This document shows positions 2,396 through 45,587 of a stretch of DNA of 64,000 bases, in pieces (positions within the stretch are counted from its first letter, which is position 1; each line of letters starts with the position of its first letter). A program made the position numbers and the translations under genes. Origin of the DNA: a virus (Duplodnaviria; Caudoviricetes); IMG/VR virus record IMGVR_UViG_3300009082_000959; one strand, given 5' to 3'. Under the pieces are notes generated by a model. That model was not told the origin of the DNA and did not search any database. It saw only the letters and a program-made list of their open reading frames with translations.

Positions 2396-5300
2396 ATGAG
2401 TGTTTTTCCTGATGCCATAGATTCAGATTTAGAATTGCCGCGCGTGGAGAATAATGTTTCCGAAATTAGCGGAGACACGATAAATTCTGTTAGGGATTCT
2501 GTGTTAGCAATAGAAAATGCCATTGGTATCAATCCACAGGGAAACACTGCTGACCTGACAACTCGCATTGGTTTGGTTATAGATGCCGACGGAAGAGTTA
2601 AAGCATCTGCTTTGGCATCCAGTGGGTTGGTGACTCTTCCAATTTCTAATTCCCAAATAGGTGTAAATGCCGCAATAGAGGAATCAAAATTAGACCTGGA
2701 TTACCCCACCGCAACACTTAATGCCAGCTTGGGTACAATATCGGCTAATTTGAGTGCTCTAATAACAACAATAAATTCACTAGCTTATAATACGGCAAGT
2801 CACTACGCCGGAACAGGAAACAAACACAAAGGAACTGCCATAGATTTGGTTTCTCCAATTTTAGGCGGAACAAATGTTGAGTCTGCACTTGGACTAGTCA
2901 ATACTGCTCTTTCTTCACACACGGCATCTACACTAAATAGTCACACGGCTAGCAGCATTTCTTTATCCGGGCCATTTATTAATATAGATTCCGACGATGT
3001 TGAAGAAGCAATAGGCGAATTAGACATAGGTCAATCTGCGGCAATAGAGGAACACCAAGACAAGTTACACAGAAATGGAATAGTAATAGGAGAAAGATCA
3101 TCTTCGCAAATTAATTCGGAATACACCACGTTTGCTGGAACAATATACCAAACCGATACCGATGAAGCGACAAATATATTTCAAATAATGAGACCAAATG
3201 TTGCACGCATTTCAAGTAAAAACATAGACTTACGCGCATTATCTTCTACTACTGCCAGGAACCTAAGAATTCAGGCAGGTGGGGTTGGTCGTGGAACGCT
3301 GGATGTAGATTTGGTTTCTACAATACCAGCTGACTCGATTGATGAAATTGTTGAGGTAATAAATACACAAGCACGCGAGCAACACTACCCTATTTCTGCC
3401 TATAATACCGGTGCTTTGACTTTGGCCCACAATATACCTGGCGCACAGTACACACTAGAGGTTTTAGATACCATATCACTAGACGCATCTAATGCGCTGG
3501 GTTTTTCTGGCATAACAAACGTAGTGTGCTCTTGGCCAGATAATGTGCCTGGATGCTTTGTTTCTGGCAAAAAAATAAGTGGAATAAAATCAATAGTATC
3601 GTGCGCGTGTGTTCAAACATCTCTTAGTCCAACAATTAATCCGGCAGTAGGTAATTTAAGTTTGCTGGGATTATCTGGGAATGAAGGAAGAGTTTTGTGT
3701 AATATCACCAATCACAGCACAGACTCTACGGTCAATGGAACATACTATATAATAAATTATCCAACAACAAGTACAATAACACTAAATGATGACATTGCGG
3801 CTGGAACTTTTGATTTAGAAATAGCCGCAGACTCTATCAACTTCGAAAATAGTGCAAGAGGGGAATTATTTGATATTTTTGTAGAACACGATCCAGATGG
3901 ATATATTGGCCACGGAGTACTTAAAAAATATAATCGTGTGAGTTATGGTACAATACCAGGTGTTGTATTGAAGTGCGTAAGTAATGACTTCGTAGATAGT
4001 GGTGATTTTGAGTGGGGAGTTTCTTCTTCTGGATATCTTACTTTATATCATAATGGAAATGCAGGAGTATCAAAGGGAATTTCAACTGGATATGTTGGGC
4101 AAATTGAGGTTTTTGCCCCCAACAATACGACTAGCGCTGTGTTTCAGGTTCACGGTAATTTTTCTGCGGCAAGAAAAGAATTCAATGTAAGCGAATTTGC
4201 CGGAAGTGATGACAAACTATACTTGGGATCAATTCACTACGGCGGAAATTTTGGACTACAAACTATTAAATATTTTATGGATAGTAGAGTCTTTGGTTCA
4301 ACACAAGACACTGAAAGCAATGATGTTATTAATAAAATAAAAACAGACGATCTTGCTAGTGAATTAAGAAACAACGGCGTCATACGTGGGTTTGATATAG
4401 AAAGTTACCTTAATACATCTTTGAGAGTTCGTGGCGGCCGGGCTCTCATAAGTGGCAAAATAATAGACGTAGAAACAAAAGATGTAACGGTTGATGTTTT
4501 TACAGAAGCAACCAGGATGCTTTTATTAGATATTAATGGAGATTACCTAATAAAAGATACGGCCAATGTTGGGTTTTCCTTTGATGAACTCACCAGTGGT
4601 ACTAATTTTGGTGATGAGGCCGGAGTTGCTCTTATTTGCGAATTTAATACCGATGGTTCCAAGATAGATGGGTACGTCACAGACAGACGACTTTTTGTAA
4701 ATAAAATAGACAAACGCTTGAATGATTTAGACTCCAGTCTTGGCGCGCGAATAGAGAATGTGCTCAGCACTGTTAGTGGTGGGTACTGGGGATTTACTAT
4801 AGCAGAAACAGCAAATGAGGATGGTTACATTGCTGAATTGGAAATGGCAAATCACGATGGCTTTAATTTTGTTCCTGACACAAATCAAACCGAGTATTCT
4901 GCGTGGGGGTTTGGAGCAGGTGAATCATCAATAACGACACGTAGATTTCAATTTGTGTCGCCCTCTTTAAATAAAACATCTATATTTAAGTCAGTTGGTT
5001 TGACGCACATTAATGTTTTTTTGGATGCAACCTATACTGGTGATCAGGATGGTATTTTGGGGCCATTTGGTGTGAGTGGAACAGTATATGTAGATATTGG
5101 TGTCGCAGTTACTGTTGGCTTAGCAAATCAAACAACAACAGAATCGTATGCTTTAGTAAAAACAATAAATGCTGGTGTTTTCCCAGTTATATCACAGATA
5201 GAGCGTTATGTTGCGTCTATTCCTGCAACTGATCTTAATCTCCAGGATAATGTCATGTTTGATGTTGTTCCTCGCATTAGAATTCGCAACACAAATTACG

Positions 5301-5463: not shown

Positions 5464-8400
5464 ATGAGCGTTTTCCCAGATGACCTCGATTCCGATCTAG
5501 AAATTGCCAGAATCGAAAATAATGTTTCCGAAATTGGCGGTGATGTACTTAATTCCTTGCGCGACGCTGTTTTTGCAATTCAGCGTGTGCTTGGTATTAA
5601 TGCGCAAGGAAACAAACCAAGTTTAACAAGCCGCATTAATGTTTCTTTGGATGCTGATGGTAATATAAAGCCAAGTTCTCTTGAAGGTATTGGTTTGGCG
5701 ACCCTACCAATAACAAATTCACATGTTGGTGATAATGCAGCAGTACAAGAATCAAAACTGGATCTTGATTTTGGGACACAATATTTAAAAAACCTCATAA
5801 GCTCTGCTCGTACCGATCTTGATGCCATCACTGCATCGGTTTCCTCACAGGGTTCTGGACTGAACCTTCATATTTTGGGCCTTGGCAATTATCACGACGG
5901 ATATCATATAAAAATAAATAGCGGCACTCAAATTGGCGTCGCAGGTATGGCCTCTATCACAGTTGGTGACGCAATAAATGAATTAAGCACACGGTTGTTT
6001 TCTGGAAGCACAACAACAGAGCCACACATAGATTTAAACGTACCCTCAACAACAAAACACGCAGCAAGCGGAATATCTGTTGATAGTTCTGATTTTGTCA
6101 GTATCGATCAGTCAATTTCCACTGTCCAAGGCGCAATAGATGCACTGGATTCTGGGTCAAATCTTTTAATAGAAAAGCATGTTGATGAGCTTCATGCCAA
6201 CGGAATAATTAAAAATGTTCGATCATATGAGTTTTTTAATTCTGATCGTCGTTTGATTGGCCCAGTGAGTGGCGTTACTTATGCTTCTGGTGGAAGTGTT
6301 GTTACACTGACTGGAGAGACATCTCTATCATCTTATAAAATAAGTGTTGGGGATGTTTTAGTTATACACACTATGTCCGGTGTTCTGGATGTTGGAGCAT
6401 TCCAAGTAAGAGCAATAGGTCCCTTAGCAGAAAGTGATACACTAGGTGATTTGCCCTCATTACTAGCAAATCAGGTTGCCGTATTTCATATTTTTTCTGA
6501 AACCAAGGCATCTGGTGACGGTGTTTCGGCGAGCATATACAAACCAGGACAAGTATCAAGTGAATATGCCCCATTGGCGTGCGGTATTAGACCGAACGAG
6601 ACCATGGTTGATACAATTTCGGTTGTACGACCAGATGCGGCAAGGGTTGTTAGTGTTGGATTCAATGGCGCAATACTGGCTGCCGACGGATATGATGTAA
6701 AAATAAAAGTTGGTCTTGGAAATAGCACCTTCAGAGAGCTAATAATTACAGATCTAAATTATGATAGGATTGGAACAAACAAATCGAATCCAGTAAATTC
6801 AGAACACGTTGCAGAACGAATTAATGCATTTGTGTCAGACCCAAATTCAGAAAATCACTTTCCCATTACAGCGGCAGGTGTTGGGAATGAACTAGTAATA
6901 GCACACGATTTGGTTGGTCCGGAATATACAATAGAAATTATGGAAGGATTTAATGGAAATTATCCGTTGGGTCTGGATGCATACGGAGCAGATGTCGCCG
7001 GAAATGTGGTTGTTGGAAACCTAAATTGTTTGTATAATATAAATGGAACCGGTATACGTTCAATTGCAACAAAGTTCACCGGAACTGCATCTATTAATTC
7101 TGCGACTGGAACCTTTTCTGTTTATAATAGTGACGGTCAGCTAATAAACCCACTGAATTATGGAATTGGCCCAGGTTCTGTTATTCATATACTTGATCAC
7201 CAGACCACAGAAACAAATGGTAGTTATACAGTATTGACCGCAACTACAACATCTATTTCTGTATTTTTAGCAGAACAAATAGATGCGCCCACGTCACCTA
7301 CCACATTTACGGTTGAGGCATACGAATCTCATGTGTCATTAAACTCAATTAGCGGGACAGAGACAGATAATGGAACTGTGCAAATATTTGTAGATGAGGA
7401 TGGCAGAACACAAGTTCATCAAAGAATATCGTATGGAACAAGTTTTGGTTCTGCCTTTGAGATTGTATCTATATCAAATACTTTCCCAGAAGGAACATTT
7501 AGTATCTTAATTGACTCCGTTGGAAGTCTTTTGTCGTTCAATCTTCTTGATGACTCATTCGCTGGTGATACCGTTTCCGTTGATGAAACATTTACTGGTG
7601 GATTCAAACTATATCACCCGAATGGCCTTGACTATATAACAATACATATAGAGGATGGGTCAGTGGTTGTTGGAACAGAAACACTAATTGTTTCTTCTGC
7701 CGCCAATGATGATTATTCTCTATTACTATGTACCGCGAATTTTAACGGTGATATTGAAATAACCAATCTGGTTGACGGAAGATTATTTGGTAATATCGGG
7801 GCTGATCAAGTCCGCGATGATTTTATTGAAGTTTTTAGCCAGCTTCCCATTTCTGATTTAAGGTCCGATGGCGTTGTTCGTGGTTTCGATTTAGTTGCAC
7901 TAACATATGCCGATGTGGTCACTGGAATGCAGGCACTACCTTTGCGTGGTGGCGTGGCATACGTAGATGGTGTAAGGGTGTCAGTAGAAACACAAAAAGT
8001 GATAGTGAATTCATTTAACGATGACGAAACCCTTATTAATGGTGATAGAATAGTTGCCATTAATAACTTTGGATCAATTGAGGTTTTGCAGGATAGCATT
8101 GGAGAAATGCTGACAGATGGATATTACGCCAGTTCATCTCTTGGAAAGCTTCTGCCACTTTATAAGGTCTCCGTAGTAAATGGAGAAATATCAACCGTAA
8201 TTGATATCAGAAGGTTTATAAACGACCTAGATAGTAAGTTGGATTTGGTTGTAGATGAAACAAATAATGTGGTGGGGAATTTTAGAAGCCTTGAGGGAGC
8301 ACTTTTGTTTGCCGAAAGCTACCCAAACAGAGAGCACCTTACTGTTAGGATTCTTAATTCCGTGCATCCGACTAGAAAGATTGTCGTTCCGAATGGAGTA

Positions 8401-10575
8401 TCTTTGGTTGGAGGATTACCATTTGGCGGTGGCAGACACAAAATAATAAATCAAAATAATCTTAATGCTGCCTTTATAGAGTTGGTCGGAAACAATTTCT
8501 TAAAAAATATAGAAATTTCCAGTTCAACGGCTGGTCTTCAGGGTCCATTAGTTAAGGTATCTGGATCAAATGTTGAAATAGATAATTGTTTAATTCAGTT
8601 CAATGACATAATTTCCAGTAATAGTGGAGACATTGGCATTGAGATAACAGCAGAGTCGGACATAGTAATAAGAGATACAAAAATAAACAATGTGTATATT
8701 GGTATATCTGGCACAACCGGCACAGATAATTTACTTATAAAAAATAATAGCATTCTTGGTGTTTCTGGCGTTGGATTATCATATGCCGTGTATGTTGGTA
8801 GTAGTTCTCGCGAAATAGATAATTTAAATATAATAGGAAACACAATAGGTCTGGATAACACAGACAATACAGATTTGAGAGGAATATTTATTGACATTGG
8901 TGAGTCCATTGGAAAAGCAACAATATCTGGTAATAAAATTGTTGGTGAATTAAATGTCTTGTCTACCAACAATGTATCCAATGGTATAAGAATTATAAAT
9001 ACACTTGCGACAGGAAATGTTTTATCACAAGCAATAATACACGAAAACTATATAGAGAATGTTAAATTACTTGATAGTTCTGTGTTTGGAATTTATATTG
9101 AGGACGTAAGCAGGGTCTCAGTTTCTAACAATACTCTTGTAAATGTTGCAACGTTTGGGGCACCTTACTCTGACACTGGATTTATTTGGATTGATGACTC
9201 TGTTGGAATTGTGGACGTTCACAATAACTTATTAAATATTGGAGAGGCGTTGCGCGGAATATATGTAAAGGGCACATCGACCATAACATCAATTCTCGGA
9301 AACACTTTGAGCCAAATTGGTGACGCAAATAATGCAACCAATTTGGCTCTCCCGTACTCTGCATATATTTTGGGCAATTCGGCTCGCGCAAGTGTTGTAT
9401 CAAACACTTTTATTGGCCCAGGAGACTACGGTATTTGGTGGAAGGGAGAGAGATCAAAAATTTCAGGAAACCATTTTAGCACACCAGATAGCGCCACTAA
9501 TTATGCCTTCAAAATAGGTATAAAAGCGCAGGCAAGCTATTTGGATATATCTGATAACATGTTGGTTGGGTTTACTGACACTGATTCAATGGGAATAGTA
9601 AACGTGAGCACAGCAAACGAAGGCGTAAGAATATCTAATAATACTATAGATGGTGACGAAATGGCCAATCTAATAAAATTAAGTGGTGATTATCATGTAA
9701 TTTCTGGAAATAGGCTTAAAAACTCTACACAATCGTCTGTTGGTGGCACAACACAGTTCATTGAGTTTTCAAGTGATGCTGATAGTATATCTGTTGTTGG
9801 AAATACATTTGAGGGCAAAGGAACATCATTTATTTATTCAACCTATGCAATAACAAATGCGTCAATTTTAAATAATACCATGTATGATGCGGGCGCGGCA
9901 ATGCTAACTGGCGCACCAATTACGCTCAGCAGTGCGTCAGTAGCAGATTGTTTTATATCCGGGAATAAACTACCGGATATATCTCATTGCGGCGCTGAAA
10001 ATACAATAGGTGCTTCTCCCTCACAATTTGATTATAATACTAATACCATAGGATTTAATAAGGGTTTATTAGATAGTATTAGTCTACATGCTTCAGCTGG
10101 TGTTACTGGATACGATTCAACGGTTTCTGGTGATGGAAAGCCGTTTTGGACAATTGTGGATGGCGGAACATACTGGCAACTTAATAATACAGATAAAAAT
10201 AATTGTTACTTGTATTTCCCAATAAATTGTTTACCAAATGGTTCTGTAATAAAATCAGCACAAATACAAGGCAGGTTCACAACACAGGCTGCGGCTGCAT
10301 CTATTACGGCAAGAATATTTAAAAGAAGTGTTAATTTAATTGATACAAGTAGTCCAGTGCAACCCGTTAGTGACCCGATAACAATATCCATTAATGGTGA
10401 GTTTGTAAACACAACTTCTACCGGAACAATAGACGAAATATCTGGTGGTGAAATATCGGAAGTAATAAATTATAGTGAAAGTGCTTATTATGTGCAAATA
10501 TACTATTTGTGTTCAAACACATCTTCTGCTTCCGGAATCCAAATAAGAGGAATTACTGTTAATTTTAGACATTAA
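5464..10575 (+). CDS. Large virion appendage / tailspike-like protein with right-handed parallel beta-helix
   Basis: 1703 aa. Shares its N-terminal architecture with 2396-5449. Many I.GN.I / ISNN.I repeats at about nt 8300-9990 are typical of pectate-lyase-like beta-helices. Confidence 0.7.
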   Translation: MSVFPDDLDSDLEIARIENNVSEIGGDVLNSLRDAVFAIQRVLGINAQGNKPSLTSRINVSLDADGNIKPSSLEGIGLATLPITNSHVGDNAAVQESKLDLDFGTQYLKNLISSARTDLDAITASVSSQGSGLNLHILGLGNYHDGYHIKINSGTQIGVAGMASITVGDAINELSTRLFSGSTTTEPHIDLNVPSTTKHAASGISVDSSDFVSIDQSISTVQGAIDALDSGSNLLIEKHVDELHANGIIKNVRSYEFFNSDRRLIGPVSGVTYASGGSVVTLTGETSLSSYKISVGDVLVIHTMSGVLDVGAFQVRAIGPLAESDTLGDLPSLLANQVAVFHIFSETKASGDGVSASIYKPGQVSSEYAPLACGIRPNETMVDTISVVRPDAARVVSVGFNGAILAADGYDVKIKVGLGNSTFRELIITDLNYDRIGTNKSNPVNSEHVAERINAFVSDPNSENHFPITAAGVGNELVIAHDLVGPEYTIEIMEGFNGNYPLGLDAYGADVAGNVVVGNLNCLYNINGTGIRSIATKFTGTASINSATGTFSVYNSDGQLINPLNYGIGPGSVIHILDHQTTETNGSYTVLTATTTSISVFLAEQIDAPTSPTTFTVEAYESHVSLNSISGTETDNGTVQIFVDEDGRTQVHQRISYGTSFGSAFEIVSISNTFPEGTFSILIDSVGSLLSFNLLDDSFAGDTVSVDETFTGGFKLYHPNGLDYITIHIEDGSVVVGTETLIVSSAANDDYSLLLCTANFNGDIEITNLVDGRLFGNIGADQVRDDFIEVFSQLPISDLRSDGVVRGFDLVALTYADVVTGMQALPLRGGVAYVDGVRVSVETQKVIVNSFNDDETLINGDRIVAINNFGSIEVLQDSIGEMLTDGYYASSSLGKLLPLYKVSVVNGEISTVIDIRRFINDLDSKLDLVVDETNNVVGNFRSLEGALLFAESYPNREHLTVRILNSVHPTRKIVVPNGVSLVGGLPFGGGRHKIINQNNLNAAFIELVGNNFLKNIEISSSTAGLQGPLVKVSGSNVEIDNCLIQFNDIISSNSGDIGIEITAESDIVIRDTKINNVYIGISGTTGTDNLLIKNNSILGVSGVGLSYAVYVGSSSREIDNLNIIGNTIGLDNTDNTDLRGIFIDIGESIGKATISGNKIVGELNVLSTNNVSNGIRIINTLATGNVLSQAIIHENYIENVKLLDSSVFGIYIEDVSRVSVSNNTLVNVATFGAPYSDTGFIWIDDSVGIVDVHNNLLNIGEALRGIYVKGTSTITSILGNTLSQIGDANNATNLALPYSAYILGNSARASVVSNTFIGPGDYGIWWKGERSKISGNHFSTPDSATNYAFKIGIKAQASYLDISDNMLVGFTDTDSMGIVNVSTANEGVRISNNTIDGDEMANLIKLSGDYHVISGNRLKNSTQSSVGGTTQFIEFSSDADSISVVGNTFEGKGTSFIYSTYAITNASILNNTMYDAGAAMLTGAPITLSSASVADCFISGNKLPDISHCGAENTIGASPSQFDYNTNTIGFNKGLLDSISLHASAGVTGYDSTVSGDGKPFWTIVDGGTYWQLNNTDKNNCYLYFPINCLPNGSVIKSAQIQGRFTTQAAAASITARIFKRSVNLIDTSSPVQPVSDPITISINGEFVNTTSTGTIDEISGGEISEVINYSESAYYVQIYYLCSNTSSASGIQIRGITVNFRH

Positions 10576-11095: not shown

Positions 11096-11875
11096 ATGGT
11101 TCAACCTTACTCACATAGAGTACTTTCAGACATCTTCGGCCTAGAATCGGTTGTATCGGACATAGGCGTAGTTGCTGGGAAAAATATACTAATTGATCAC
11201 TTAAGAGATATATTTTCCAGAGATAGAGAATATCGATTTTTGAGCGATGATTTCGGTTTTCCGAAAACACCTAGCCATCTTGGTTTGTCTCCTGGCGCTG
11301 GCCTTGATGACGAAGAAACTACTCGTATTTTCATTGGTGGAACTTTTCGCTACGACGTAAAGTTTAACCCATCACTGATCATAAAAAACACCGGAAGTAG
11401 GTATATACCAATTTCCTTCAACCAAAACTTATTGGGAATTATTAATACAAAAGAAATAATTACAGATGGTTACGGAAATAGTGCTACGATATACACTCCC
11501 GCCTATCATACTTTGGTCGGCGCCTGGGACCAAACATTTGAGGTAAAGGTTGTAGCAGAAAGTGAAACAGATAGAGAAGAAATATCAGACATTGTACAGG
11601 TGACTTTGATGGGAACCAGAAGATTAGATTTACAAAATGCTGGGCTTTTTATAAAATCTCTTTCAACGTCTGGTGAGCACGAAGAAAAATATGCAAATGA
11701 TTACTTGTATTCTGTGTCTATTAACATAGATGCACGTAGTGAGTGGAAAGTGCACATTCCAATAAGTGATGTGGTAGAAAGAATTGGTGTTTGTTTGACA
11801 TTTAGTGCCTTGGGAGGAGAGACTGCCGATGCACTAACTATAAATCAACAAATAACAATGGCAGATACTTTGTAA
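11096..11875 (+). CDS. Putative tail completion/terminator (neck) protein
   Basis: 259 aa, directly upstream of the sheath gene where tail terminators usually lie. Call rests on synteny and size. Confidence 0.45.
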   Translation: MVQPYSHRVLSDIFGLESVVSDIGVVAGKNILIDHLRDIFSRDREYRFLSDDFGFPKTPSHLGLSPGAGLDDEETTRIFIGGTFRYDVKFNPSLIIKNTGSRYIPISFNQNLLGIINTKEIITDGYGNSATIYTPAYHTLVGAWDQTFEVKVVAESETDREEISDIVQVTLMGTRRLDLQNAGLFIKSLSTSGEHEEKYANDYLYSVSINIDARSEWKVHIPISDVVERIGVCLTFSALGGETADALTINQQITMADTL

Positions 11876-36104: not shown

Positions 36105-39100
36105 ATGACTCTTTCACCAATTAGAACATCTGAACTAACTGTATCAAGTATTAAAATTATTTTTAATGACGATCTTGATACGAATATAGGTGTTGCCAAC
36201 ATATCTATCTATTCAGAAATTGACAGCATTTCTAATCCAGAGGTTAGGTCTGTATCTGTAGAAAATGAACAACTGTCTATAACATTTAGTCCCTTATTCC
36301 CAAAAGTAAAGTATAAAATACTTTTCGTTAGCACGGACACACAGTCATTCCAATCAATTAATGGTGAGCCAATAGTTGAGGATGGTGGAAGAAATTCTCT
36401 ATTTATAGTGAGTCCTGGGGAAACACAAAACACTATAAGGGATAATGTTTTTTCAGATATATCATCGATATACGATATTGATGGCCAAACTACTGTACGA
36501 AGTCTAATAACCACACTTGCCGATGAATTGCAGACATCCTCCGACGCAATCAGCACTACCAAATCTGGTAACTATCTATCTCAACAGGTTATAGATGAAT
36601 TAAAGATTAGAGATGATGGCCCTGTCGATAAGCTAGATAATGGGGGGGCTTTTCAAATATTACGTGTTGCCTCCACCCCAACTGGGTTTAGTAAAAATGG
36701 AACACTGTTATTCAATTCAACCAGGGAACAGACCTTTTCATCAAGAAATGGTATAATAATAAATTCTGCTGTAAGTGATCTTCCGTCTGATCCAATAAGC
36801 TTACAGGAAATAGATGTAATAAATGAAAAAGTTACCGATAACATAGACCTGCCAAATTATTTTAGCGGACTTTTTGTAAAATTATCATATGGTCCAATAA
36901 TTAGGGTTGTATCTGTTGCATTGAAGCGCAACGGTACATACACTGAGTATGATATAGAAAATTTTGGATATACTCTTTTTACAAATTATTATGACACTAG
37001 TTCTGCTTCAACAAATGTGAATATAGGCAATAATGAGTTTGAGCTGTCTTCATCATCTTTAACCGGAAATACTGGTGGGTTTTTAACTCCACAGGCGGGC
37101 GACGAATTATATGTATCCTATACTTACAAAAGACTTGGTAGAAATATAGATGGCGACTCAATTGAATTAAGCAGAGTTAAAAATGTTGTCAGAGAGGCTG
37201 CTCCAGCAATCGTGAACATATTTTCACTAGATTATGCCCCAATAGTTAATTCTTCTGGTATCATATTTGAAACAGGAGGTGTTACGTTTTATAACACGAT
37301 AGCATACGATGGCCATCCAGCACTAACATACGACCACCCAGCATTTATAAGAGAGATACCATATAATCTTTTGCATCTTCCAGAACAAGCCGGAGAGTAT
37401 TCTGTAGATTACTCAAGTGGGAGTGTTATAGTTTATGGCGAGGATGAAACCAACAAAGGAACAGGATTAAATCCACCTGTTGCATCCTATTCTTATAAAC
37501 ACATTTTTGATAACACAATTGACTATACATTCGATAGTGATAATTCATCATTATCATTGAATTCTACAAGGGAAATAGATGGTCTTGATGCAACAATATC
37601 GTTTAATTATGAAGACACATTTGCAGAGGGAACTGATTTCAGGGTGTTATCACATGTTGAAGTTCTTAATGAGAGGATTCTAAATAAACTAACAGGGTCT
37701 TTTGCTCTGGAGACACAAAACTTTCCAATAACAGATGTTTTTAGAATATTCAATGAAACAACTGGTGAGATATACTCGCTAGACAGATTTAATGACACAA
37801 CAGTTTTTTTCAATGGAACACAGGCACCCAGACAAAAGGACATAGTACGTGAAAGAGCTACATTTGTTCGTGTTCCGCAGGAGATTTTACTTATCTCTGA
37901 TGAGCTATCAAACACAATTGGTTTAACTGTTTTTAAAATAAATCTTGAAAATAATGGAATAGCAGATAGTCACGGAACATTTGTTGGTGCTAACTTTGAT
38001 ACATCTGCATTGTTTTCAAATGCAGATGTATTTGTTAGAGAATTCTTTTACGAAGATCGTCTGTTTACTAGTGTTGAAACCAATATAGATAGACTACTAC
38101 AAGTTGGTGACTATTCGATTGACTATAACAATGGAATTATTTATGTTGCCGTATCTGCATCACAGGATTCAAATATAGGCGATGTTACATATTTGCATAA
38201 GAAAATAGATACATCTAATTCAAATATTTTGGGCGTTAACAATATATATAAAAGCAAGTCAGCACTTCAATCGAATGTAGTAAATTATCTTATCGGCGAC
38301 ATATCTGATACAGAAGCGGAGGTTGTTGGTCTCGAACAAATTGGTGAAAGATTTATTAATGGCACTTCGTCTAGGGTGTTGGTTGTTGGTGCACATCAGA
38401 ACGGCGAAGATGGAGTTACCTCTGAGAACATTTTTACCTCAAATGGTGCTATATTTACAGAAGATGATGTCGGTAGATATCTTACTGTTGGGTCGTCTGT
38501 ACAACCACCAGTACAAGAGGTTTTAATAACTGGACTAATTAATATTCATCAAGTACTGGTTTCTCCTGATTTTATCTACTCGGGTGCTGGTAGAGTTTGG
38601 TCTGTTGTTGATTTATCACCAGGATCGCCAAAAACAATAACTCTTGATCACGACATAGTTTCTGTAAATAATATATACACTGTTTCGCAGCTCGGCACGT
38701 TACCATCGTCACTGTTGGATGGGTATTTTGATATAAATCGCGATACTGTAAGCGGAAATGTAATTACTCTTGGTGACGACAATCCGCTAGAGCTTGGTGC
38801 GGCAGTTGTAGTTAGTTATAATTTTGGAAATATTTTTATTGATTATAAGTATTTGCGCGACAATATTATTATATCTTACGAATATGGCAAAAATTCAATA
38901 GATTGGAGTATAAGTAATTCACTATATAGTGGCCAAGAATATTATGTAACCTACAAATACGGCGCATTACGAAATTCTCTTCTATTAAATTTTGGTTCTT
39001 TGACTCAAATACCACAACTTACAAATTTTTCACCAAATCTTAACAGAGAAACATATCGGTCTGTACTGTCGGGAACACTGCAATCATTCATAGAGGGTCC

Positions 39101-42100
39101 AACAGTAAGGTCAATAGAGAGATTGGTAGAATCATTCACTGGAGTAACGCCAGAAATAGAGGAGTCTACGTTTAGTAATTGGGTTGTTGGTAGAGATAAG
39201 TTGCATCTAAGAAAACCAACCTACTTATCAACACAGTCGTTCGATTTGGGCCGGTTTGATAAAGGTGCCATTATAGACTCCACTAATTTTATTAGTGTTC
39301 CGGCACTGTCACATATAAAAATTAACGAGGGGACTATATCTGCATGGTTGCGGCCGAACTGGAGTGGCTTGGCGAATGATGCCCAGATAACTTTTGACAT
39401 TCAAATGGATGGGTACTACGATGAGTCAAGAGTATTTATAGGATTCTCTGGTTTTCATCCTGATTCAATTCCCTTTACACTTAATTCGTCTGATGATGAT
39501 CCCAGCGTAACAAGTGTTCCGAATGTTTTAGATAGTGAAACTGGATATTTTATTTGGTATGATGAGTTCGAAAAGAAATGGAATATAGTTTGGAGAGAAA
39601 ACTCATCATTTAATCATAATTTTACTGGAACAATATCAACCGATGGTGAATTTTATAGCGTAAATAATTACACTGGGCTAGACGGATATTCCAATAACGA
39701 AACCAGTGATATAATAACTAGTTCACTGGATTATATAAAGTTTTCTGGGTACATAGATGGTTATGATTCAGGATACTCATCTGATGGTATATCATTTGCA
39801 TCTGATTTACATCACTATATATTCGACATGGCCGCATCACCTAGTGCAAACAGAATGTCATTATTCAAAGATGGGTCTGGATATTTAAATTTCCAGGTAT
39901 TTGACAATAGAGGAATGGATATTGATGGTTTTTCTGGTTTCTATAATGTTTCAAAGGACATAAGCGCTTGGAATGAAGACGAATTGCATCATGTTGCTGT
40001 TTCGTGGAGATTTAATTCTGACGAAGAAAATGATGAAATGCATTTGTTTGTAGATGGTTCAGAGGTACAAAATCTATTTAAATATGGTGGTAATCCGAAA
40101 GCAAGCTCATTATATGATTTTGGAAATGTATCAGAGGAAGTTGTGATATCCAGTGCAACAAAACCAATTATAGGTGGTAGCGATGGCTCTACTTATGCTG
40201 GGTCTTTTGTGTTTGTTTCTACTTCTTCAGATTTTTCCACAGATGGCGTTTCTATAGGAGACTCACTATACTTATTGGATGACACAGCAGACGGAACAGG
40301 GTCACCAAACTATGGAACTCCTTATGGAATTACTGGTGTTGGTTCATCGAGCATTACCTTGGACCGTGCTCCAACATTAACGCTTAGTAGTGTAAAATTT
40401 AGCGTAAATTCTACAACAAAAACCGTAGATACACATGTTAATATTCAGGACTTCATAGTTGTTAAAATTGATGCCGATGGAAATGAAACAGAATTAGCGG
40501 GGGTAGATTCTTCTGACCCAGATTATTCTACTGTACGCGGAACATACTATAATCATACACTCACAATAAATAATGGAATAGCTATCGGGGATCGTGTTGT
40601 AATTAGACCACTTGGTTTAATATTAAGAAGATGTAAAGATAAAGTTTATGTGTACGGCGGAGGATACGATGAAATTAGATTAAATTCTGCTCCACCAGTT
40701 TCGTTGGCTGATGTCAAAATAACATCCATTGTGCTTGACAAAACAAGCATAAGTGAAGATGGGTACTTTGATTTTGCATCTGGCATAGTTGATGCACAAT
40801 TGGTTACATTATTAACCAGAACGATAAGTGATATGTGTCAACCAAGCAATCAATCTGCTGGCAAAAAATTAGATATCACATTTAGCGGTGATAATTTTAA
40901 TTATACCTTATCGGGAAATACCGTTGTCATAAATGGAACAACATATTCAGGGGCAACAACTGAAACCCTATCTTTCACAGAAAGTACAACAACTACTTCT
41001 TCACAGTATTGGAAAACTATAGAAAATTTAACCATTTCCGCAATACCAATTGATTTAGAGAAAGGGGCCGGAACAGTAGAAATACGTGAATCTATACCAA
41101 TAACTGTGTCAGAAAATAACGGTGATTATGCAGAAATAGTTGATTATGCTAACGGTATATTTAGATTGGAAACATATGGAACTGGTGGAAACCCATATAT
41201 ACTTAATGCTTGTACCTATGAGGTTGACTACCCATCTTATTTGAGAGTTCCATTTGATAGTATTCCAGATAAATTTTATATTGGGTGCGACCACAACGAG
41301 TCGAATAATTTATCTGGAACAATAGATGAGTTTAAGATACTTGATTTTATGGCATCGGATACCAGAGTAGGAGAAGAGGTTGTATCAGGCGAATACTCGA
41401 TAACAACCGATTATAATTCATCCAATGAGTCAGAGGAAGACGCAAACACATTACTACTTATGCATTTAAATAGTACTGTAGAAGACTCATCGATTTTTAG
41501 AGACAGATTTAATGCCGGATATGAGGTTTCGTCTAGCATAAACTCTGATTTTGGCATGGCGATTAAATTCGGCAAAAATAATCCTTACATTGTCAACGAT
41601 GCCTCTATTTTCAATACTGACGAGGGTTCAATAGAGTTTTGGGTTAGTCCTTTTCAAGATTCAATAGGTGATCCAAATTATAGATACTACGTTGATATGA
41701 CTACCAGTGTAGAAATAGAGGTAGAATCAGTTTCAAGGGTGTCAGTAATATCTCCAAGAAGTATAAGGGAAGTGGAAAGCATAAGACTTGTTTCAGATAT
41801 ATATAATACTGGAATAAATTATTTTGACGGAGGTTCATTATCTACTGTTGATAATAAAACAATTTCACTCAGTACTCCGCTTCCAGATTACAATACTCCT
41901 GTTAGAATTAGATTTGTTTCATTGGACAACCAGGGAGACCGAGTAAGTATTTTTAGAGACCCAGATGGTAGAGTTAATTTTTTTGTAAAAGCCTCTGGGG
42001 TTGAGCACTTACTCAGTGTATCTACCGTGTGGGACAGACATACCTGGCACAGAATTATGGTTATGTGGAAGACAAACAGCTCAGATGGCCAGGATAGATT

Positions 42101-42647
42101 GCGCTTATTTGTGGACGGGGAGGAGAGAGGCACAATACGATATGGAACTGGACTCATATATGGAACTGGAGTTATATACGGACAAGAGGAGATTCGTTCT
42201 GGAGCAGATAGATTTTTAGTAGATAATATTGATCTTACAGATGTGTTTTCAACAATATATCTGGGTTCTGATATAACTAGCAATAATGGTGCAAGTGCCA
42301 AGATGGATAATATAAGATTTTCAGAAATTCAACGACTTGAAACCATTAAAGTTGTATCAAGCACAACAATTGATGTCAATTACTATCAGAATACTCTGTT
42401 GGCGATTCCGGTAACAGAGGATGTATATACTACTAAGATTTTTAATTTTGACGATGACAGTTCTAATGTGATATATTTAGCCACAGTTGTGAATAAAGAA
42501 CGTGGCATTTTCCGGTTTAAAGTAAAAGTAATAGATTCGTTTGATAGAGTAATTGGTAATACGGAACTAGAGAACCTTTTGGTAACTCTTATAAATACAA
42601 TAAAAGCAGCTCACTGTGAGGCTATAGTTGAGTACATTAGGTGGTAA
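36105..42647 (+). CDS. Baseplate wedge (gp7/gpI-like) protein with Ig-like and LamG/concanavalin-A-like domains
   Basis: 2180 aa. gpI-like block RETYRSVL...GPTVRSIERLVESFTG; LamG motifs EGTISAW, LHHVAVSW, LFVDG, GTIDEFKI, EGSIEFW, WHRIMVMW, MDNIRFS. Confidence 0.7.
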   Translation: MTLSPIRTSELTVSSIKIIFNDDLDTNIGVANISIYSEIDSISNPEVRSVSVENEQLSITFSPLFPKVKYKILFVSTDTQSFQSINGEPIVEDGGRNSLFIVSPGETQNTIRDNVFSDISSIYDIDGQTTVRSLITTLADELQTSSDAISTTKSGNYLSQQVIDELKIRDDGPVDKLDNGGAFQILRVASTPTGFSKNGTLLFNSTREQTFSSRNGIIINSAVSDLPSDPISLQEIDVINEKVTDNIDLPNYFSGLFVKLSYGPIIRVVSVALKRNGTYTEYDIENFGYTLFTNYYDTSSASTNVNIGNNEFELSSSSLTGNTGGFLTPQAGDELYVSYTYKRLGRNIDGDSIELSRVKNVVREAAPAIVNIFSLDYAPIVNSSGIIFETGGVTFYNTIAYDGHPALTYDHPAFIREIPYNLLHLPEQAGEYSVDYSSGSVIVYGEDETNKGTGLNPPVASYSYKHIFDNTIDYTFDSDNSSLSLNSTREIDGLDATISFNYEDTFAEGTDFRVLSHVEVLNERILNKLTGSFALETQNFPITDVFRIFNETTGEIYSLDRFNDTTVFFNGTQAPRQKDIVRERATFVRVPQEILLISDELSNTIGLTVFKINLENNGIADSHGTFVGANFDTSALFSNADVFVREFFYEDRLFTSVETNIDRLLQVGDYSIDYNNGIIYVAVSASQDSNIGDVTYLHKKIDTSNSNILGVNNIYKSKSALQSNVVNYLIGDISDTEAEVVGLEQIGERFINGTSSRVLVVGAHQNGEDGVTSENIFTSNGAIFTEDDVGRYLTVGSSVQPPVQEVLITGLINIHQVLVSPDFIYSGAGRVWSVVDLSPGSPKTITLDHDIVSVNNIYTVSQLGTLPSSLLDGYFDINRDTVSGNVITLGDDNPLELGAAVVVSYNFGNIFIDYKYLRDNIIISYEYGKNSIDWSISNSLYSGQEYYVTYKYGALRNSLLLNFGSLTQIPQLTNFSPNLNRETYRSVLSGTLQSFIEGPTVRSIERLVESFTGVTPEIEESTFSNWVVGRDKLHLRKPTYLSTQSFDLGRFDKGAIIDSTNFISVPALSHIKINEGTISAWLRPNWSGLANDAQITFDIQMDGYYDESRVFIGFSGFHPDSIPFTLNSSDDDPSVTSVPNVLDSETGYFIWYDEFEKKWNIVWRENSSFNHNFTGTISTDGEFYSVNNYTGLDGYSNNETSDIITSSLDYIKFSGYIDGYDSGYSSDGISFASDLHHYIFDMAASPSANRMSLFKDGSGYLNFQVFDNRGMDIDGFSGFYNVSKDISAWNEDELHHVAVSWRFNSDEENDEMHLFVDGSEVQNLFKYGGNPKASSLYDFGNVSEEVVISSATKPIIGGSDGSTYAGSFVFVSTSSDFSTDGVSIGDSLYLLDDTADGTGSPNYGTPYGITGVGSSSITLDRAPTLTLSSVKFSVNSTTKTVDTHVNIQDFIVVKIDADGNETELAGVDSSDPDYSTVRGTYYNHTLTINNGIAIGDRVVIRPLGLILRRCKDKVYVYGGGYDEIRLNSAPPVSLADVKITSIVLDKTSISEDGYFDFASGIVDAQLVTLLTRTISDMCQPSNQSAGKKLDITFSGDNFNYTLSGNTVVINGTTYSGATTETLSFTESTTTTSSQYWKTIENLTISAIPIDLEKGAGTVEIRESIPITVSENNGDYAEIVDYANGIFRLETYGTGGNPYILNACTYEVDYPSYLRVPFDSIPDKFYIGCDHNESNNLSGTIDEFKILDFMASDTRVGEEVVSGEYSITTDYNSSNESEEDANTLLLMHLNSTVEDSSIFRDRFNAGYEVSSSINSDFGMAIKFGKNNPYIVNDASIFNTDEGSIEFWVSPFQDSIGDPNYRYYVDMTTSVEIEVESVSRVSVISPRSIREVESIRLVSDIYNTGINYFDGGSLSTVDNKTISLSTPLPDYNTPVRIRFVSLDNQGDRVSIFRDPDGRVNFFVKASGVEHLLSVSTVWDRHTWHRIMVMWKTNSSDGQDRLRLFVDGEERGTIRYGTGLIYGTGVIYGQEEIRSGADRFLVDNIDLTDVFSTIYLGSDITSNNGASAKMDNIRFSEIQRLETIKVVSSTTIDVNYYQNTLLAIPVTEDVYTTKIFNFDDDSSNVIYLATVVNKERGIFRFKVKVIDSFDRVIGNTELENLLVTLINTIKAAHCEAIVEYIRW

Positions 42648-42699
42648 TATATTTGTCGCTCTATATGATTGTTTCTTGGTTTTCCACGGTCTAATGACC

Positions 42700-42727: not shown

Positions 42728-42758
42728 GCGACTTATAAGAAATTTTTAGGAGAAAAAA

Positions 42759-45587
42759 ATGGCTAGGTCTAATTGGTCGAGAGTAAATTTTTTTGATGGT
42801 CAAGAGGTTTCTGAAACGGACCTCGATGTTGAACAGAGCGCATGGCATAATGGCTTGGCCAATGCCGTAGATTTTTTGGCGGGTAGCGGGGTAGAAAAGG
42901 ATTCTGCAGTTCAAAGAGTGTTGTTTGACTCGGATGATGTTCCTGCGTCTATATCTAGTCTGATTTCGTCAACATCATTTGATGGAGAGCCTATATATCC
43001 AACAGATGCGTTTGGCCAGGTTGTTTTTCTGCAGCCATCCGATGCATCTGAGGGAAACCAATTAGAGGTTGAAATATCTGGATCATCATTGGACGGGACT
43101 CCAAGTGCCAAGGTATTTGTATTTGGTCAGATTTTTGGCGGAACATTTACTCACGAGGTGCTGGTATTTGACAAAAATACATCTATTGTAACCAGGAACT
43201 ATTTTAATAATATAGTTTCTATAATGACGCAGGATTTTCTGGGGAACCAAAATACAATAGTGGACGGCGTTGCATCAAGAAACAATGGAGGAAGATTAAG
43301 AATTCTTGAAGCTCTGCCAATGTCACTAACTCACGACACCATAATGGCGGAACAAGTCGCAGAGCCTAGTATGGATTACGTGAATTTTAAACCAGCAACA
43401 TTATCTAAAACATTAGATATAGTGTTGGATGAAATAGCTGCTACAGAAGGATTATCAAAAGATGACCTAAGAATAAATGTAACCGCAACCACCACAAGGA
43501 CACTTCCAATAAATGAAAGTACCGGAATGATAGTTGGCCAAAAATTTAAGGCTACCACCAACAATATTCAAAAGATTTCAGTGCTGTTGTCTGTTGAAGA
43601 AAACACTCTAGCAACACCAGGACAGGAATTTGATTGGTCTGGAGAAATTATCGTTGGTATTAGAGCACTACAAACGACAACCACATGTCCAACCGCAGCA
43701 ATACCAAACACATCAATCGAATTTGATCCTGAATTATATCCGTTGGCCGAAGTTTCTTTTTCGCAAAACGATCTTGAAGACATAGGGGTGATATTAACTG
43801 ATGAACCCCAAGTAGTTGATTTTGTATTTACACAGTCTCTGCTGGCAAACCCAAACATAGAACCATCTATTGTTCCTGGAAAATATTATATTCTAACAAT
43901 ACGCAGGTCTGGTGATTTGAGCAAAGGTAACATTGTATTGCAGGAGGCAGAGAATACAAATGTTTCCGACACAGACGACATGATGATGTCTGTGTTCTCA
44001 CAGAATGTTTGGACAGATATTCCAGAAAGTGACTTGTGGTTTAGAATACACACAGACGCAATAAGAATAACAAGCGGAACAGCATTTGATGGTGGAGTAC
44101 AAATAACATCAAATAAAACAAAAAAGAATGATTCGACGGGAGTGCTGGAACCATATGTCAACGGATACTATAATTTACTAGATATATCTAGTTCTGCGAA
44201 AAATTATGTGATTGTACAAAAATCAACAGAGTTTTCCGATTCAATACCACATCCGTCGACCGGAAACCAAGTGTTTACCAGAATACTTGATGTGCCAGAT
44301 GTTGTTGTTGTATCAGAAGATACCCTGACAACATTAATTGACGCAGGAACAGAGCCAATAATTTTGGGATATGCAACTGATACTAATCCAATTGGAAATC
44401 CGAGTATTACCGGATACACAGAGTTTCCTGGATTAGCAAGAAGTAATACCCTTACATTGATTAATCCAAGTTCTGATATAACCAATAATAATTTGGTCGG
44501 GTCAATACTAACGCCAAATACTGGTGAGCCAGAATTAAAATACAGAATAATAAAAGTTCAGTCGTACGACGATGCCTACGGTGATATTAATAATGACCTA
44601 GGCGTGGACGTATTTGATGTTTCGCGGGCATTGATTTTGGACGGGTACTCAAAGACATTGGTAGATGGAACAGTATCGTCCGTCGACCAGCAAAGGGCAA
44701 TTGTAGCCGGCACAGTAACAATGGAAGAAATCATAAGAGCTGATGTCACTAACGATGGTGAGATAGATATTCTTGATGCACAATTGATACAACAAAACAT
44801 ATCTCTTGGGACATCATTTAGTTCTGGTAGCACTTTTAATAGGGTTGTAATAACTGTCGAAAGTCTTACTAGTCCACTTAGCACAACTCCTAATATTATA
44901 GGATCAGATAGTTCATTTAATGATGTTCCGTTTTCACAGATACAGTTTAGAATAGACTTTGTTCCACTTTGGACACAATCAAACATAACCATAGTGGATT
45001 TAAGAAGGTTTGTTCCGAATACTTTTACACAGTTGGAATCCGATGATATAACTGGAAGCACACCTAATGGCGGAAAGAATGTTGCGTACATTCCAGGTGA
45101 CTTGTTGCTGGGCGGAAATCTTCTAACACCAGAGGGAGAATCATACTCTGTTGATTTAGAGGTAAACACGATAACAATAGATTTGCCGGATGGAGATACT
45201 CAGGGAGAAGTTGATATATTTACAAACTTTATTAAAAATAAAATGTATTTCTCGGATGGCTCATTGGTAACTGCCGACGCAATAACAGATAATCAAATTA
45301 AGGTGTCAGCAGCGATTGGTTCACTTGCTAAGAACAACGAGGACTTGGATGGATATGACTTCCAAAGCATAGACGGAGTAACGACAGTTGATACTTCGGT
45401 TTCTGTGTTGTATATGCAGGAGTTCGGTTTATTGAGAATTAGAGCATATAATATAAAAAATATATCAACTGTCCCGGAACTAAAAACAAAAATTATTCTT
45501 ACCGTGTTCCTAAAGAAAGCCGGTTTTGCTAACAGTGAGGTTGAAGTAACACCACAAGAATTAAGCGACATATTAACGGTAATATAA
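42759..45587 (+). CDS. Tail fibre/baseplate-peripheral protein with dockerin-like EF-hand pair
   Basis: 942 aa. N-terminal RVNFFDGQEVSETDLDVEQ is typical of fibre-attachment domains; GDINNDLGVDVFD and ADVTNDGEIDILD loops; AGGAG RBS. Confidence 0.6.
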   Translation: MARSNWSRVNFFDGQEVSETDLDVEQSAWHNGLANAVDFLAGSGVEKDSAVQRVLFDSDDVPASISSLISSTSFDGEPIYPTDAFGQVVFLQPSDASEGNQLEVEISGSSLDGTPSAKVFVFGQIFGGTFTHEVLVFDKNTSIVTRNYFNNIVSIMTQDFLGNQNTIVDGVASRNNGGRLRILEALPMSLTHDTIMAEQVAEPSMDYVNFKPATLSKTLDIVLDEIAATEGLSKDDLRINVTATTTRTLPINESTGMIVGQKFKATTNNIQKISVLLSVEENTLATPGQEFDWSGEIIVGIRALQTTTTCPTAAIPNTSIEFDPELYPLAEVSFSQNDLEDIGVILTDEPQVVDFVFTQSLLANPNIEPSIVPGKYYILTIRRSGDLSKGNIVLQEAENTNVSDTDDMMMSVFSQNVWTDIPESDLWFRIHTDAIRITSGTAFDGGVQITSNKTKKNDSTGVLEPYVNGYYNLLDISSSAKNYVIVQKSTEFSDSIPHPSTGNQVFTRILDVPDVVVVSEDTLTTLIDAGTEPIILGYATDTNPIGNPSITGYTEFPGLARSNTLTLINPSSDITNNNLVGSILTPNTGEPELKYRIIKVQSYDDAYGDINNDLGVDVFDVSRALILDGYSKTLVDGTVSSVDQQRAIVAGTVTMEEIIRADVTNDGEIDILDAQLIQQNISLGTSFSSGSTFNRVVITVESLTSPLSTTPNIIGSDSSFNDVPFSQIQFRIDFVPLWTQSNITIVDLRRFVPNTFTQLESDDITGSTPNGGKNVAYIPGDLLLGGNLLTPEGESYSVDLEVNTITIDLPDGDTQGEVDIFTNFIKNKMYFSDGSLVTADAITDNQIKVSAAIGSLAKNNEDLDGYDFQSIDGVTTVDTSVSVLYMQEFGLLRIRAYNIKNISTVPELKTKIILTVFLKKAGFANSEVEVTPQELSDILTVI

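What the first reader, a model, noticed from the sequence alone, without database searches (positions are those of the whole stretch)
3896..45356. DGY tripeptide concentrated in peripheral virion proteins: possible tyrosine-modification sequon
Seen (manual count): DGY occurs 15 times, at nt 3896, 4667, 4820 (1017-aa protein); 5896, 6685, 8116 (1703-aa); 11465 (259-aa); 34812 (J-like); 38718, 39408, 39681, 39756, 40758 (2180-aa); 44640, 45348 (942-aa). That is about 7200 aa, where a rough composition estimate gives only 2-3. I found none in sheath, tube, tape measure, hub, spike, nucleases or the GT cluster, although DG is common there. Codons vary (GAT/GAC, GGA/GGG/GGT, TAT/TAC), so selection acts on the peptide, not the DNA. 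A related DAYG occurs 4 times (sheath twice, 1703-aa, 942-aa). Established: tyrosine O-glycosylation occurs on some bacterial S-layer proteins (e.g. Paenibacillus alvei). Inference: DGY may be the acceptor motif for the adjacent GT cluster, or a docking motif for a decoration protein.
Basis: partly seen in the sequence, partly recalled or inferred. Interest (0 to 1): 0.8.

Follow-up and report, generated by a model that had tools for sequence, protein, structure and literature searches.

The report
DGY tag on huge-phage tail proteins
The outward-facing tail, baseplate and fibre proteins of this uncultured huge phage and its relatives carry the three-residue motif Asp-Gly-Tyr about ten times more often than chance, in exposed loops; this is a real, undescribed surface mark, perhaps the attachment site for sugars added by the phage's own enzymes, though no modification has been shown.

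Summary
The count is exact. There are 15 in-frame DGY at the stated coordinates, in six proteins (7,176 aa; 1.6 expected), and none in the other 37 ORFs. DGY is the most enriched of 8,000 tripeptides in the window (Bonferroni p 0.017).

Relatives settle the question:
- In four orthologous families from 27 IMG/VR huge-phage loci, DGY is 344 observed against 27.8 expected.
- In 150 independent cluster representatives it is 501 against 55.6.
- DGF, DGW, NGY, EGY, SGY and GGY are at or below expectation. Only DAY is co-enriched, so the motif is D-[G/A]-Y.

The sites behave like a functional surface motif:
- They lie in predicted loops, occupy 74 different alignment columns and sometimes expand to DGYDGYDGY.
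- When lost, the Tyr is replaced by Phe in 6% of cases, against 40% at other Tyr columns.
- Two other huge phages, and some orthologous lineages, have baseline DGY.

A GT4 glycosyltransferase gene follows the fibre genes in every motif-rich lineage examined. It also occurs in some motif-poor ones. The sequon reading therefore survives but is unproven.

This scan found the same tag earlier in at least seven other genomes. I found no published description.

The parts
2396..5449 (+). 1017-aa fibre-like protein; DGY at residues 501, 758, 809 (nt 3896, 4667, 4820)
   Evidence: No Pfam or PHROG hit. Its N-terminal ~230 aa are shared with the 1703-aa protein. All 3 sites are kept in a 48%-identical homologue in G005.
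5464..10575 (+). 1703-aa beta-helix fibre-like protein; DGY at residues 145, 408, 885 (nt 5896, 6685, 8116); DAYG at 505
   Evidence: Pfam Beta_helix. All 3 sites are kept in the G005 homologue, which has 2 more.
11096..11875 (+). 259-aa protein; DGY at residue 124 (nt 11465)
   Evidence: Homologues in L051 and L052 also carry 1 DGY.
11981..14551 (+). Tail sheath (856 aa); no DGY, but the variant DAY at residues 174 and 198
   Evidence: Pfam Phage_sheath_1C. DAY198 aligns with DGY in the sheaths of L051 and L052.
32877..36104 (+). Baseplate J-like wedge protein with a long C-terminal extension; DGY at residue 646 (nt 34812)
   Evidence: Pfam Baseplate_J and phrog_6. The site is kept in 63% of 27 homologues.
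36105..42647 (+). 2180-aa baseplate/fibre protein with two ConA/LamG-like domains; DGY at residues 872, 1102, 1193, 1218, 1552 (nt 38718, 39408, 39681, 39756, 40758)
   Evidence: The AF2 model of residues 840-1350 puts all four of its sites in coil or loops. Retention in homologues is 30, 59, 81, 48 and 0%.
42759..45587 (+). 942-aa protein with a dockerin-like Ca-loop module; DGY at residues 628 and 864 (nt 44640, 45348); DAYG at 605
   Evidence: In the AF2 model, site 628 is coil after a helix and site 864 lies in a disordered loop.
47718..48935 (+). GT4-family (GT-B) glycosyltransferase, the only GT that keeps its place after the fibre genes in all motif-rich clades; candidate writer
   Evidence: Weak Pfam GT1/GT4 hits here, clearer in orthologues. 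Orthologues follow the 942-like gene in 17 IMG/VR loci, in G001, G004 and G005, and in L083, L087, L088, L089 and the P0071 contig.
45595..47712 (+). 705-aa double GT2 protein (GT2 + Glyco_tranf_2_5)
50210..57081 (+). Run of GT2 genes (50210-50890, 51510-52331, 52331-54277, 54286-55290, 55297-56046, 56314-57081)
58100..59089 (+). Second GT4/GT1-family glycosyltransferase
61737..62903 (+). MerR HTH fused to a Polysacc_synt_2 nucleotide-sugar 4,6-dehydratase (PglF/CapD type)
   Evidence: A related epimerase/dehydratase gene sits downstream of the fibre genes in L080, L082, L083, L088 and L090.

Best explanation
Asp-[Gly/Ala]-Tyr is a short surface motif that selection maintains on the outward-facing tail proteins of this clade of huge myovirus-like phages. 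The carriers are the two fibre-like proteins, the 259-aa protein, the sheath (as DAY here), the extension of baseplate J, the 2180-aa LamG protein and the 942-aa protein. Shown: the motif sits in loops, needs Tyr rather than Phe and Asp rather than Glu or Asn, is gained and lost at many positions, can be tandemly expanded, and rises and falls together in unrelated proteins of one genome. That pattern implies something acting in trans that reads the tripeptide. In this reading it would put a first sugar on the Tyr hydroxyl in the cytoplasm before or during tail assembly. In this phage the GT2 run would then extend the glycan, using a sugar made through the PglF-type dehydratase, so that the distal tail gets a sugar coat.
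For: Enrichment:
- The window has 15 DGY against 1.6 expected in the carriers and 0 elsewhere.
- Four orthologous families in 27 relatives have 344 against 27.8, while core and GT families have 5 against 8.0.
- 150 independent representatives have 501 against 55.6.

Specificity:
- Observed/expected is DGF 0.67, DGW 0.61, NGY 0.59, EGY 0.06, SGY 0.60, GGY 0.57 and DAY 4.2.
- DGY occupies 74 distinct alignment columns, against 14 for DGF and 11 for NGY.

Surface, non-structural character:
- All six modelled sites are coil or loop, two of them at low pLDDT.
- A lost Tyr becomes Phe in 6% of cases against 40% at other Tyr columns, and becomes polar or small in 66% against 31%. Gaps are 26% against 9%.
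- DGYDGYDGY insertions occur.
- Orthologues with the same domains but baseline DGY exist.

Conservation: the window's sites are retained at 42% against 13% for all tripeptides, p 6.5e-4.

Genome-level trait: DGY density in the 2180-like and 942-like proteins correlates across 31 genomes, rho 0.72.

Link to the GT:
- A GT4 orthologue follows the fibre genes in every motif-rich lineage with coverage.
- It is the only GT there in the richest clades.
- The GT4-less L080/L081 has baseline DGY, while its sister L083 has GT4 and 5 DGY against 0.79 expected.
- Phage G and LR745208.1 have baseline DGY in their tail or baseplate modules. Phage G has no GT4 homologue anywhere in its genome, and no homologue of a window GT was seen within 20 kb of LR745208.1's baseplate module.
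- No GT carries DGY.
Against: - No chemical evidence of any modification exists.
- L078 and L082 have the GT4 orthologue but baseline DGY, so GT4 is at best necessary and not sufficient.
- The association is not corrected for phylogeny, and the informative contrasts are few: two GT4-less lineages, one of them on a truncated contig.
- GT clusters beside tail genes could instead modify the host surface or the DNA.
- No GT4 enzyme acting on tyrosine turned up in my literature searches, and I know of none.
- A tripeptide is very short for enzyme recognition.
- The flanks show no further consensus.
Confidence: 0.38

Rival explanations
1. DGY is itself a binding motif, comparable to RGD or to Tyr/Gly/Asp-rich antibody loops. 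Many copies in flexible loops of distal tail proteins would give multivalent, low-affinity attachment to a host-surface polymer or protein. No modification would be involved.
For: The sites are in loops of lectin-like ConA/LamG domains and in fibre proteins. Tandem expansion and dense clusters such as DGYGPDGYRDGYDGYDVTGHDGY would raise avidity. Density is labile between lineages, as expected if hosts differ. Some lineages have GT4 without the motif.
Against: Generic sticky loops should tolerate SGY, GGY, NGY, DGW and DGF, yet all are at or below expectation. The motif also occurs on the sheath and on the baseplate J extension, which are unlikely first-contact surfaces. No motif-rich lineage lacks the GT4.
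Confidence: 0.25
2. DGY is read by something other than a glycosyltransferase. Candidates are another Tyr-directed modification (sulfation, phosphorylation, nucleotidylylation, oxidative cross-linking) or a docking site for a decoration or assembly protein encoded elsewhere in the genome.
For: The strict need for Tyr and Asp and the genome-level co-variation fit any trans-acting reader. GT4 presence does not predict the motif. Only 64 kb of a genome of more than 200 kb was visible.
Against: Pfam found no sulfotransferase, kinase or Fic-type enzyme in the ORFs scanned. No candidate reader co-located with the fibre genes across clades other than the GT4.
Confidence: 0.17
3. DGY is an ordinary structural element (an Asp-Gly turn followed by an aromatic strand start), or a composition or statistical artefact of beta-rich proteins.
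For: DG is enriched 1.5-fold generally, and DGS, DGT and DGV are about 2-fold enriched. With a Markov-1 null the window alone is only marginal (15 against 5.24). Several sites follow a beta strand.
Against: NGY, DGF and DGW are not enriched. The Tyr is rarely replaced by Phe. Tandem repeats occur in low-confidence loops. Orthologues with the same folds have baseline DGY, as do two other huge phages. Beta-rich inner tail proteins have none.
Confidence: 0.05
4. DGY marks cleavage sites (P1 = Tyr) for the trypsin/chymotrypsin-fold peptidase encoded at 1673-2377, just upstream of the fibre-like genes.
For: Pfam Trypsin_2 at 1673-2377. Chymotrypsin-like enzymes cut after aromatic residues (general knowledge).
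Against: A homologue was found in only 2 of 5 motif-rich genome records, and it is not at that position in G005. Multiple and tandem cuts inside folded baseplate domains make little functional sense. Phe should also serve as P1.
Confidence: 0.03

Closest known systems
Virion glycosylation of mycobacteriophages by phage-encoded glycosyltransferases (Freeman et al. 2023, Cell Host Microbe; cited as ref. 80 in PMC12582341)
   Same: Phage-encoded GT genes lie beside structural genes, and the proposed targets are virion surface proteins made in the cytoplasm.
   Different: From my own knowledge, capsid and tail-tube subunits are the targets there, and no tripeptide Tyr motif is described. Here the targets are distal tail, baseplate and fibre proteins with a D-[G/A]-Y motif, and no glycan has been shown.
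Sequon-directed cytoplasmic glycosylation of fibrous adhesins (HMW1C/NGT at Asn-X-Ser/Thr; GtfA/GtfB, a GT4 enzyme, on serine-rich repeat adhesins) - from my own knowledge
   Same: A soluble GT-B enzyme would modify many copies of a very short motif on large, beta-rich surface proteins. GtfA belongs to family GT4, like the syntenic enzyme here.
   Different: The acceptors there are Asn or Ser/Thr, not Tyr. The sequences are unrelated: PDB sequence search gave only weak GT-B hits.
Tyrosine O-glycosylation of S-layer proteins (Paenibacillus alvei SpaA, Thermoanaerobacter; PMC2943079)
   Same: Tyr is the O-glycan acceptor on a repetitive surface protein.
   Different: The glycan there is built on a lipid carrier and transferred outside the cytoplasm by an O-oligosaccharyltransferase. 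No such enzyme was found in the window, and that review mentions no DGY-type consensus.
Bacteroidetes general O-glycosylation motif D-(S/T)-(A/I/L/V/M/T) and Campylobacter D/E-X-N-X-S/T - from my own knowledge
   Same: A three- to five-residue sequon that starts with an acidic residue and is used on many proteins.
   Different: Those systems are periplasmic and use a lipid-linked donor with Ser/Thr or Asn as acceptor. Here the proteins are cytoplasmic and the candidate acceptor is Tyr.

Membership tests
Protein-glycosylation sequon system (motif plus dedicated GT) | A short acceptor motif over-represented on the target proteins and not elsewhere | tested here: met
   15 against 1.6 in the carriers and 0 in the other ORFs. 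Clade-wide 344 against 27.8, compared with 5 against 8.0 in core and GT families.
Protein-glycosylation sequon system (motif plus dedicated GT) | The acceptor residue cannot be replaced by a non-acceptor look-alike | tested here: met
   DGF observed/expected 0.67. Tyr to Phe is 6% of replacements, against 40% at other Tyr columns.
Protein-glycosylation sequon system (motif plus dedicated GT) | Motif accessible on the folded protein | tested here: met
   All six modelled sites are coil or loop by DSSP, two at pLDDT below 60. The sites are indel-prone and tandemly expandable. Solvent accessibility itself could not be computed because no coordinates were available.
Protein-glycosylation sequon system (motif plus dedicated GT) | Motif and transferase are inherited together | tested here: inconclusive
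   Every motif-rich lineage examined has the GT4, and two GT4-less lineages are motif-poor. However, L078 and L082 have GT4 with baseline DGY. The test is not phylogeny-corrected.
Protein-glycosylation sequon system (motif plus dedicated GT) | A glycan is covalently attached to the motif residue | not testable with these tools
   Needs mass spectrometry of virions or of co-expressed proteins.
S-layer-type tyrosine O-glycosylation | Membrane O-oligosaccharyltransferase (Wzy_C type) with a lipid-linked donor | tested here: not met
   No such Pfam family appeared among the 36 window ORFs scanned. Only soluble-type GT2 and GT4 domains were found. Seven small ORFs were not scanned.
EF-hand / dockerin-type Ca-binding loop (DxDxDG) | Asp or Asn at loop positions 1 and 3, before the D-G | tested here: not met
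   The flanks of the 15 sites and the logo of 74 columns show no D-x-D upstream. Only site 628 of the 942-aa protein lies next to a dockerin-like module, and that Pfam hit is below the cut-off (E 0.004).
Generic beta-turn plus aromatic structural motif | Conservative interchange with N-G turns and with Phe or Trp | tested here: not met
   Observed/expected is NGY 0.59, DGF 0.67 and DGW 0.61. Replacements are mostly polar residues or gaps.

The most novel reading that the evidence does not exclude
A tripeptide sequon, D-[G/A]-Y, directs tyrosine O-glycosylation of the distal tail of huge phages by a cytoplasmic phage GT4 enzyme. To my knowledge this would be the first sequon-defined Tyr glycosylation system and the first glycan-coated phage tail apparatus.
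Probability: 0.35. Interest if true: 0.85.

Novelty: new variant of a known kind. Interest (0 to 1): 0.72.

Why it matters
If the motif is a Tyr-glycosylation sequon, it would define a new protein-modification chemistry with a portable three-residue tag. It would also show that huge phages coat their host-recognition machinery with sugars, which bears on host range, on evasion of host or environmental proteases and receptors, and on glyco-engineering. If it is instead a binding tag, it would be an RGD-like adhesion code for phages. Either way, the motif is a simple sequence marker for the exposed virion proteins of an uncultured clade in which most such proteins have no annotation.

Tried and rejected
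- Complex prediction of the GT4 with the ConA-like domain of the 2180-aa protein gave no verdict. It is not used as evidence either way.
- Foldseek of the 511-residue model against the PDB gave only weak laminin-G, galectin and adhesin hits. They support a lectin-like sandwich and nothing more.
- No relative of the 2180-aa protein was found among deposited phage genomes. A single-sequence scan for the 1703-aa protein in IMG/VR found nothing; homologues were reached later through G005.
- No whole genome is held for the window, so a genome-wide count in this phage was not possible. Contigs from the look-up of encoding contigs could not be searched whole.
- Literature: 'DGY motif' gave 0 papers, 'DGY + phage + tail' gave 1 irrelevant paper, and 'Asp-Gly-Tyr' gave nothing relevant. 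Two papers were not held.
- Rejected: a DNA-level motif, because 15 of 16 + strand matches are in frame, 2 lie on the - strand and codons vary.
- Rejected: an internal repeat domain, because the flanks are unrelated.
- Rejected: an EF-hand loop.
- Rejected: a substitute tripeptide in motif-poor lineages; none stands out.
- Judged unlikely: a protease site.
Full report
**What the window is.**
All long ORFs are on the + strand and form the tail module of a huge myovirus-like phage.
- A trypsin-fold peptidase comes first.
- Two fibre-like proteins follow, of 1017 and 1703 aa. They share their N-terminal ~230-250 residues, and the 1703-aa one has a beta-helix.
- Next come a 259-aa protein, the sheath, a LAGLIDADG ORF, and large inner tail and baseplate proteins.
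- Then a baseplate J-like protein of 1075 aa, a 2180-aa protein with LamG/ConA-like domains, and a 942-aa protein with a dockerin-like module.
- From 45.6 to 59.1 kb there are at least ten GT2 and GT4 domains.
- At 61.7 kb a PglF/CapD-type sugar dehydratase is fused to a MerR HTH.
- No whole genome is held. Earlier notes place the window more than 147 kb into its genome.

**The observation.**
- All 15 DGY are in frame at the stated positions, in six proteins of 7,176 aa. None occur in the other 37 ORFs.
- Composition predicts 1.62 in the carriers and 3.29 overall.
- DGY is the most enriched of 8,000 tripeptides (Bonferroni 0.017). A Markov-1 expectation is 5.24, because DG itself is 1.5-fold enriched, so the window alone would be only suggestive.
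- In the carriers 15 of 69 DG are followed by Tyr; elsewhere 0 of 67 are.
- Fifteen sites falling in six or fewer proteins has P = 0.009.
- The DNA pattern occurs in frame in 15 of 16 + strand matches and only twice on the - strand. Codon choice at the sites mirrors overall usage.
- The flanks of the 15 sites are unrelated, so this is not a repeated domain.

**Relatives settle the statistics.**
- IMG/VR holds 27 loci with orthologues of the 2180-aa protein (35-60% identity), on contigs of up to 442 kb.
- Over four orthologous peripheral families (131,690 aa), DGY is 344 against 27.8 expected. This is by far the top tripeptide. Core tail and GT families have 5 against 8.0.
- The enrichment is sequence-specific. 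Observed/expected is DGF 0.67, DGW 0.61, NGY 0.59, EGY 0.06, SGY 0.60 and GGY 0.57. Only DAY (4.2) shares it.
- Counted as distinct alignment columns, DGY occupies 74, against 14 for DGF and 11 for NGY, so it has arisen many times.
- A profile search of 1.84 billion cluster representatives gave 712 homologues. The best 150 are less than 50% identical to each other and hold 501 DGY against 55.6 expected.
- The window's own sites in the J, 2180 and 942 families are retained in 42% of homologues, against 13% for all tripeptides (p 6.5e-4).
- All six sites of the 1017- and 1703-aa proteins are kept in 47%-identical homologues.
- Sheath DAY198 aligns with DGY in other sheaths.
- Tandem DGYDGY occurs 23 times on the coding strand of five large records, never on the other strand and never in the reversed-pattern control.
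- (DGY)3 occurs 45 times in IMG/VR. About half of these are in this clade's tail proteins.
- In a complete 442-kb genome the pattern is 102 on the coding strand against 8 on the other. It clusters in the tail region.

**Negative controls.**
- Bacillus phage G was the best-scoring hit, and the best among cultured phages, by baseplate J (31% identity). Its tail module has 2 DGY against 2.1 expected, and it has no GT4 homologue anywhere in its genome.
- The 485-kb uncultured phage LR745208.1 has 2 against 1.9.
- Within the family itself, some orthologous modules are at baseline. L078 has 1 against 1.28, L080 has 1 against 0.67 and L085 has 1 against 0.99. No substitute tripeptide appears in them.
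- The folds therefore do not require DGY.

**Nature of the sites.**
- AF2 models built on 28- and 23-sequence alignments put every modelled site in coil.
  - Site 872 follows a helix.
  - Sites 1102 and 1218 directly follow beta strands of a ConA-like sandwich.
  - Site 1193 is in a loop of pLDDT 56.
  - Site 628 follows a dockerin-like helix.
  - Site 864 is in a loop of pLDDT below 50.
- Where homologues lack the motif, the Tyr position holds Phe in 6% of cases, against 40% at other Tyr columns of the same proteins. It holds polar or small residues in 66% against 31%, and gaps in 26% against 9%.
- In some relatives the same loops carry DGYDGYDGY, and other proteins carry clusters such as DGYGPDGYRDGYDGYDVTGHDGY.
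- Beyond the tripeptide there is no flank consensus, apart from a mild preference for Asp at +1.
- This is the behaviour of an exposed, all-or-none linear motif in which the Tyr hydroxyl and the Asp carboxylate matter. It is not the behaviour of a packing aromatic.

**A genome-level trait.**
- On a tree of 70 long homologues, rich and poor lineages are interleaved.
- DGY density in the 2180-like and the unrelated 942-like proteins co-varies across 31 genomes (Spearman 0.72, not phylogeny-corrected).
- This points to a trans-acting reader, or to a selective agent that is common to one genome's tail proteins.

**Who reads it?**
- The only gene that keeps its place next to the carriers across clades is a GT4-family glycosyltransferase, the orthologue of 47718-48935.
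- It follows the 942-like gene in 17 IMG/VR loci, is single-copy in G001, G004 and G005, and is present in four further motif-rich lineages drawn from the unbiased profile search.
- In the richest clades (L009, L016, L089) it is the only GT there.
- L080/L081 lacks it and is at baseline. Its sister L083 has it, with 5 DGY against 0.79 expected.
- L085 also lacks it in the 5.9 kb covered, and it too is at baseline.
- Against a simple rule, L078 and L082 carry the GT4 but have baseline DGY.
The reverse case exists, and the informative contrasts are few.
- The trypsin-fold peptidase is found in only 2 of 5 motif-rich records.
- A complex prediction of the GT4 with a DGY domain gave no verdict.

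**Verdict.**
- The best-supported reading is a trans-read surface tag.
- Tyr O-glycosylation started by the syntenic GT4 is the leading mechanism, at about 0.38.
- A direct adhesion motif (0.25) and another reader or writer (0.17) remain open.
- A structural or statistical artefact is essentially excluded.
- I found no published description.
- The same tag was noted and followed up earlier in this scan in at least seven other genomes, with similar conclusions. Those notes are not independent evidence.
- I tested their co-occurrence claim myself and found it holds only in one direction.

Noticed in passing
window 14555-15364: A LAGLIDADG homing-endonuclease-like ORF with an N-terminal HTH is wedged directly after the sheath gene. 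A 39%-identical copy sits in the tail region of G001 (L076).
   Followed up: partly
window 48936-50213 and 62903-64000: Two proteins are built of tandem DUF4379 treble-clef zinc fingers (at least five ~60-aa repeats with GHWC / WCP / WCC). They lie inside and after the GT cluster and explain the WCP, WCC and HWC tripeptide enrichment. A DUF4379 protein also sits beside the GT4 in L087.
   Followed up: partly
window 2396-3100 and 5464-6220: The 1017-aa and 1703-aa proteins share their N-terminal ~230-250 residues (38-45% identity to each other's homologues). This is typical of alternative fibres that share one attachment domain.
   Followed up: partly
window 61737-62903: A MerR-type HTH is fused to a Polysacc_synt_2 (PglF/CapD-type) nucleotide-sugar 4,6-dehydratase, which is an unusual fusion. 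Relatives have an unfused epimerase/dehydratase next to a TubZ tubulin and a helicase.
   Followed up: no
window 1673-2377: A trypsin-fold serine peptidase lies immediately upstream of the fibre-like genes. It is present in only 2 of 5 related genome records.
   Followed up: partly
window 44570-44800 (942-aa protein, residues ~605-680): A dockerin-like pair of Ca-binding loop-helix motifs (DAYGDINND... and a second loop), below the Pfam cut-off but conserved across 23 homologues. A dockerin-type module on a phage tail protein is unusual.
   Followed up: partly
L075 (G001:269500-274600) and L076 (G001:353600-361400): DGY-dense proteins with no homologue in the window: a 420-aa ORF with 8 DGY, and a 659-aa ORF fragment with five DGY within 25 residues. 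The motif reaches further virion proteins outside the region studied.
   Followed up: partly
L088 (NCBI GCA_902731535.1, CACVJY010000001.1, 374,858 bp): A publicly deposited huge-phage genome of this family, with 13 DGY in its 2326-aa orthologue, 6 in the next protein, and the GT4 directly downstream. It would be a convenient reference genome for follow-up.
   Followed up: partly
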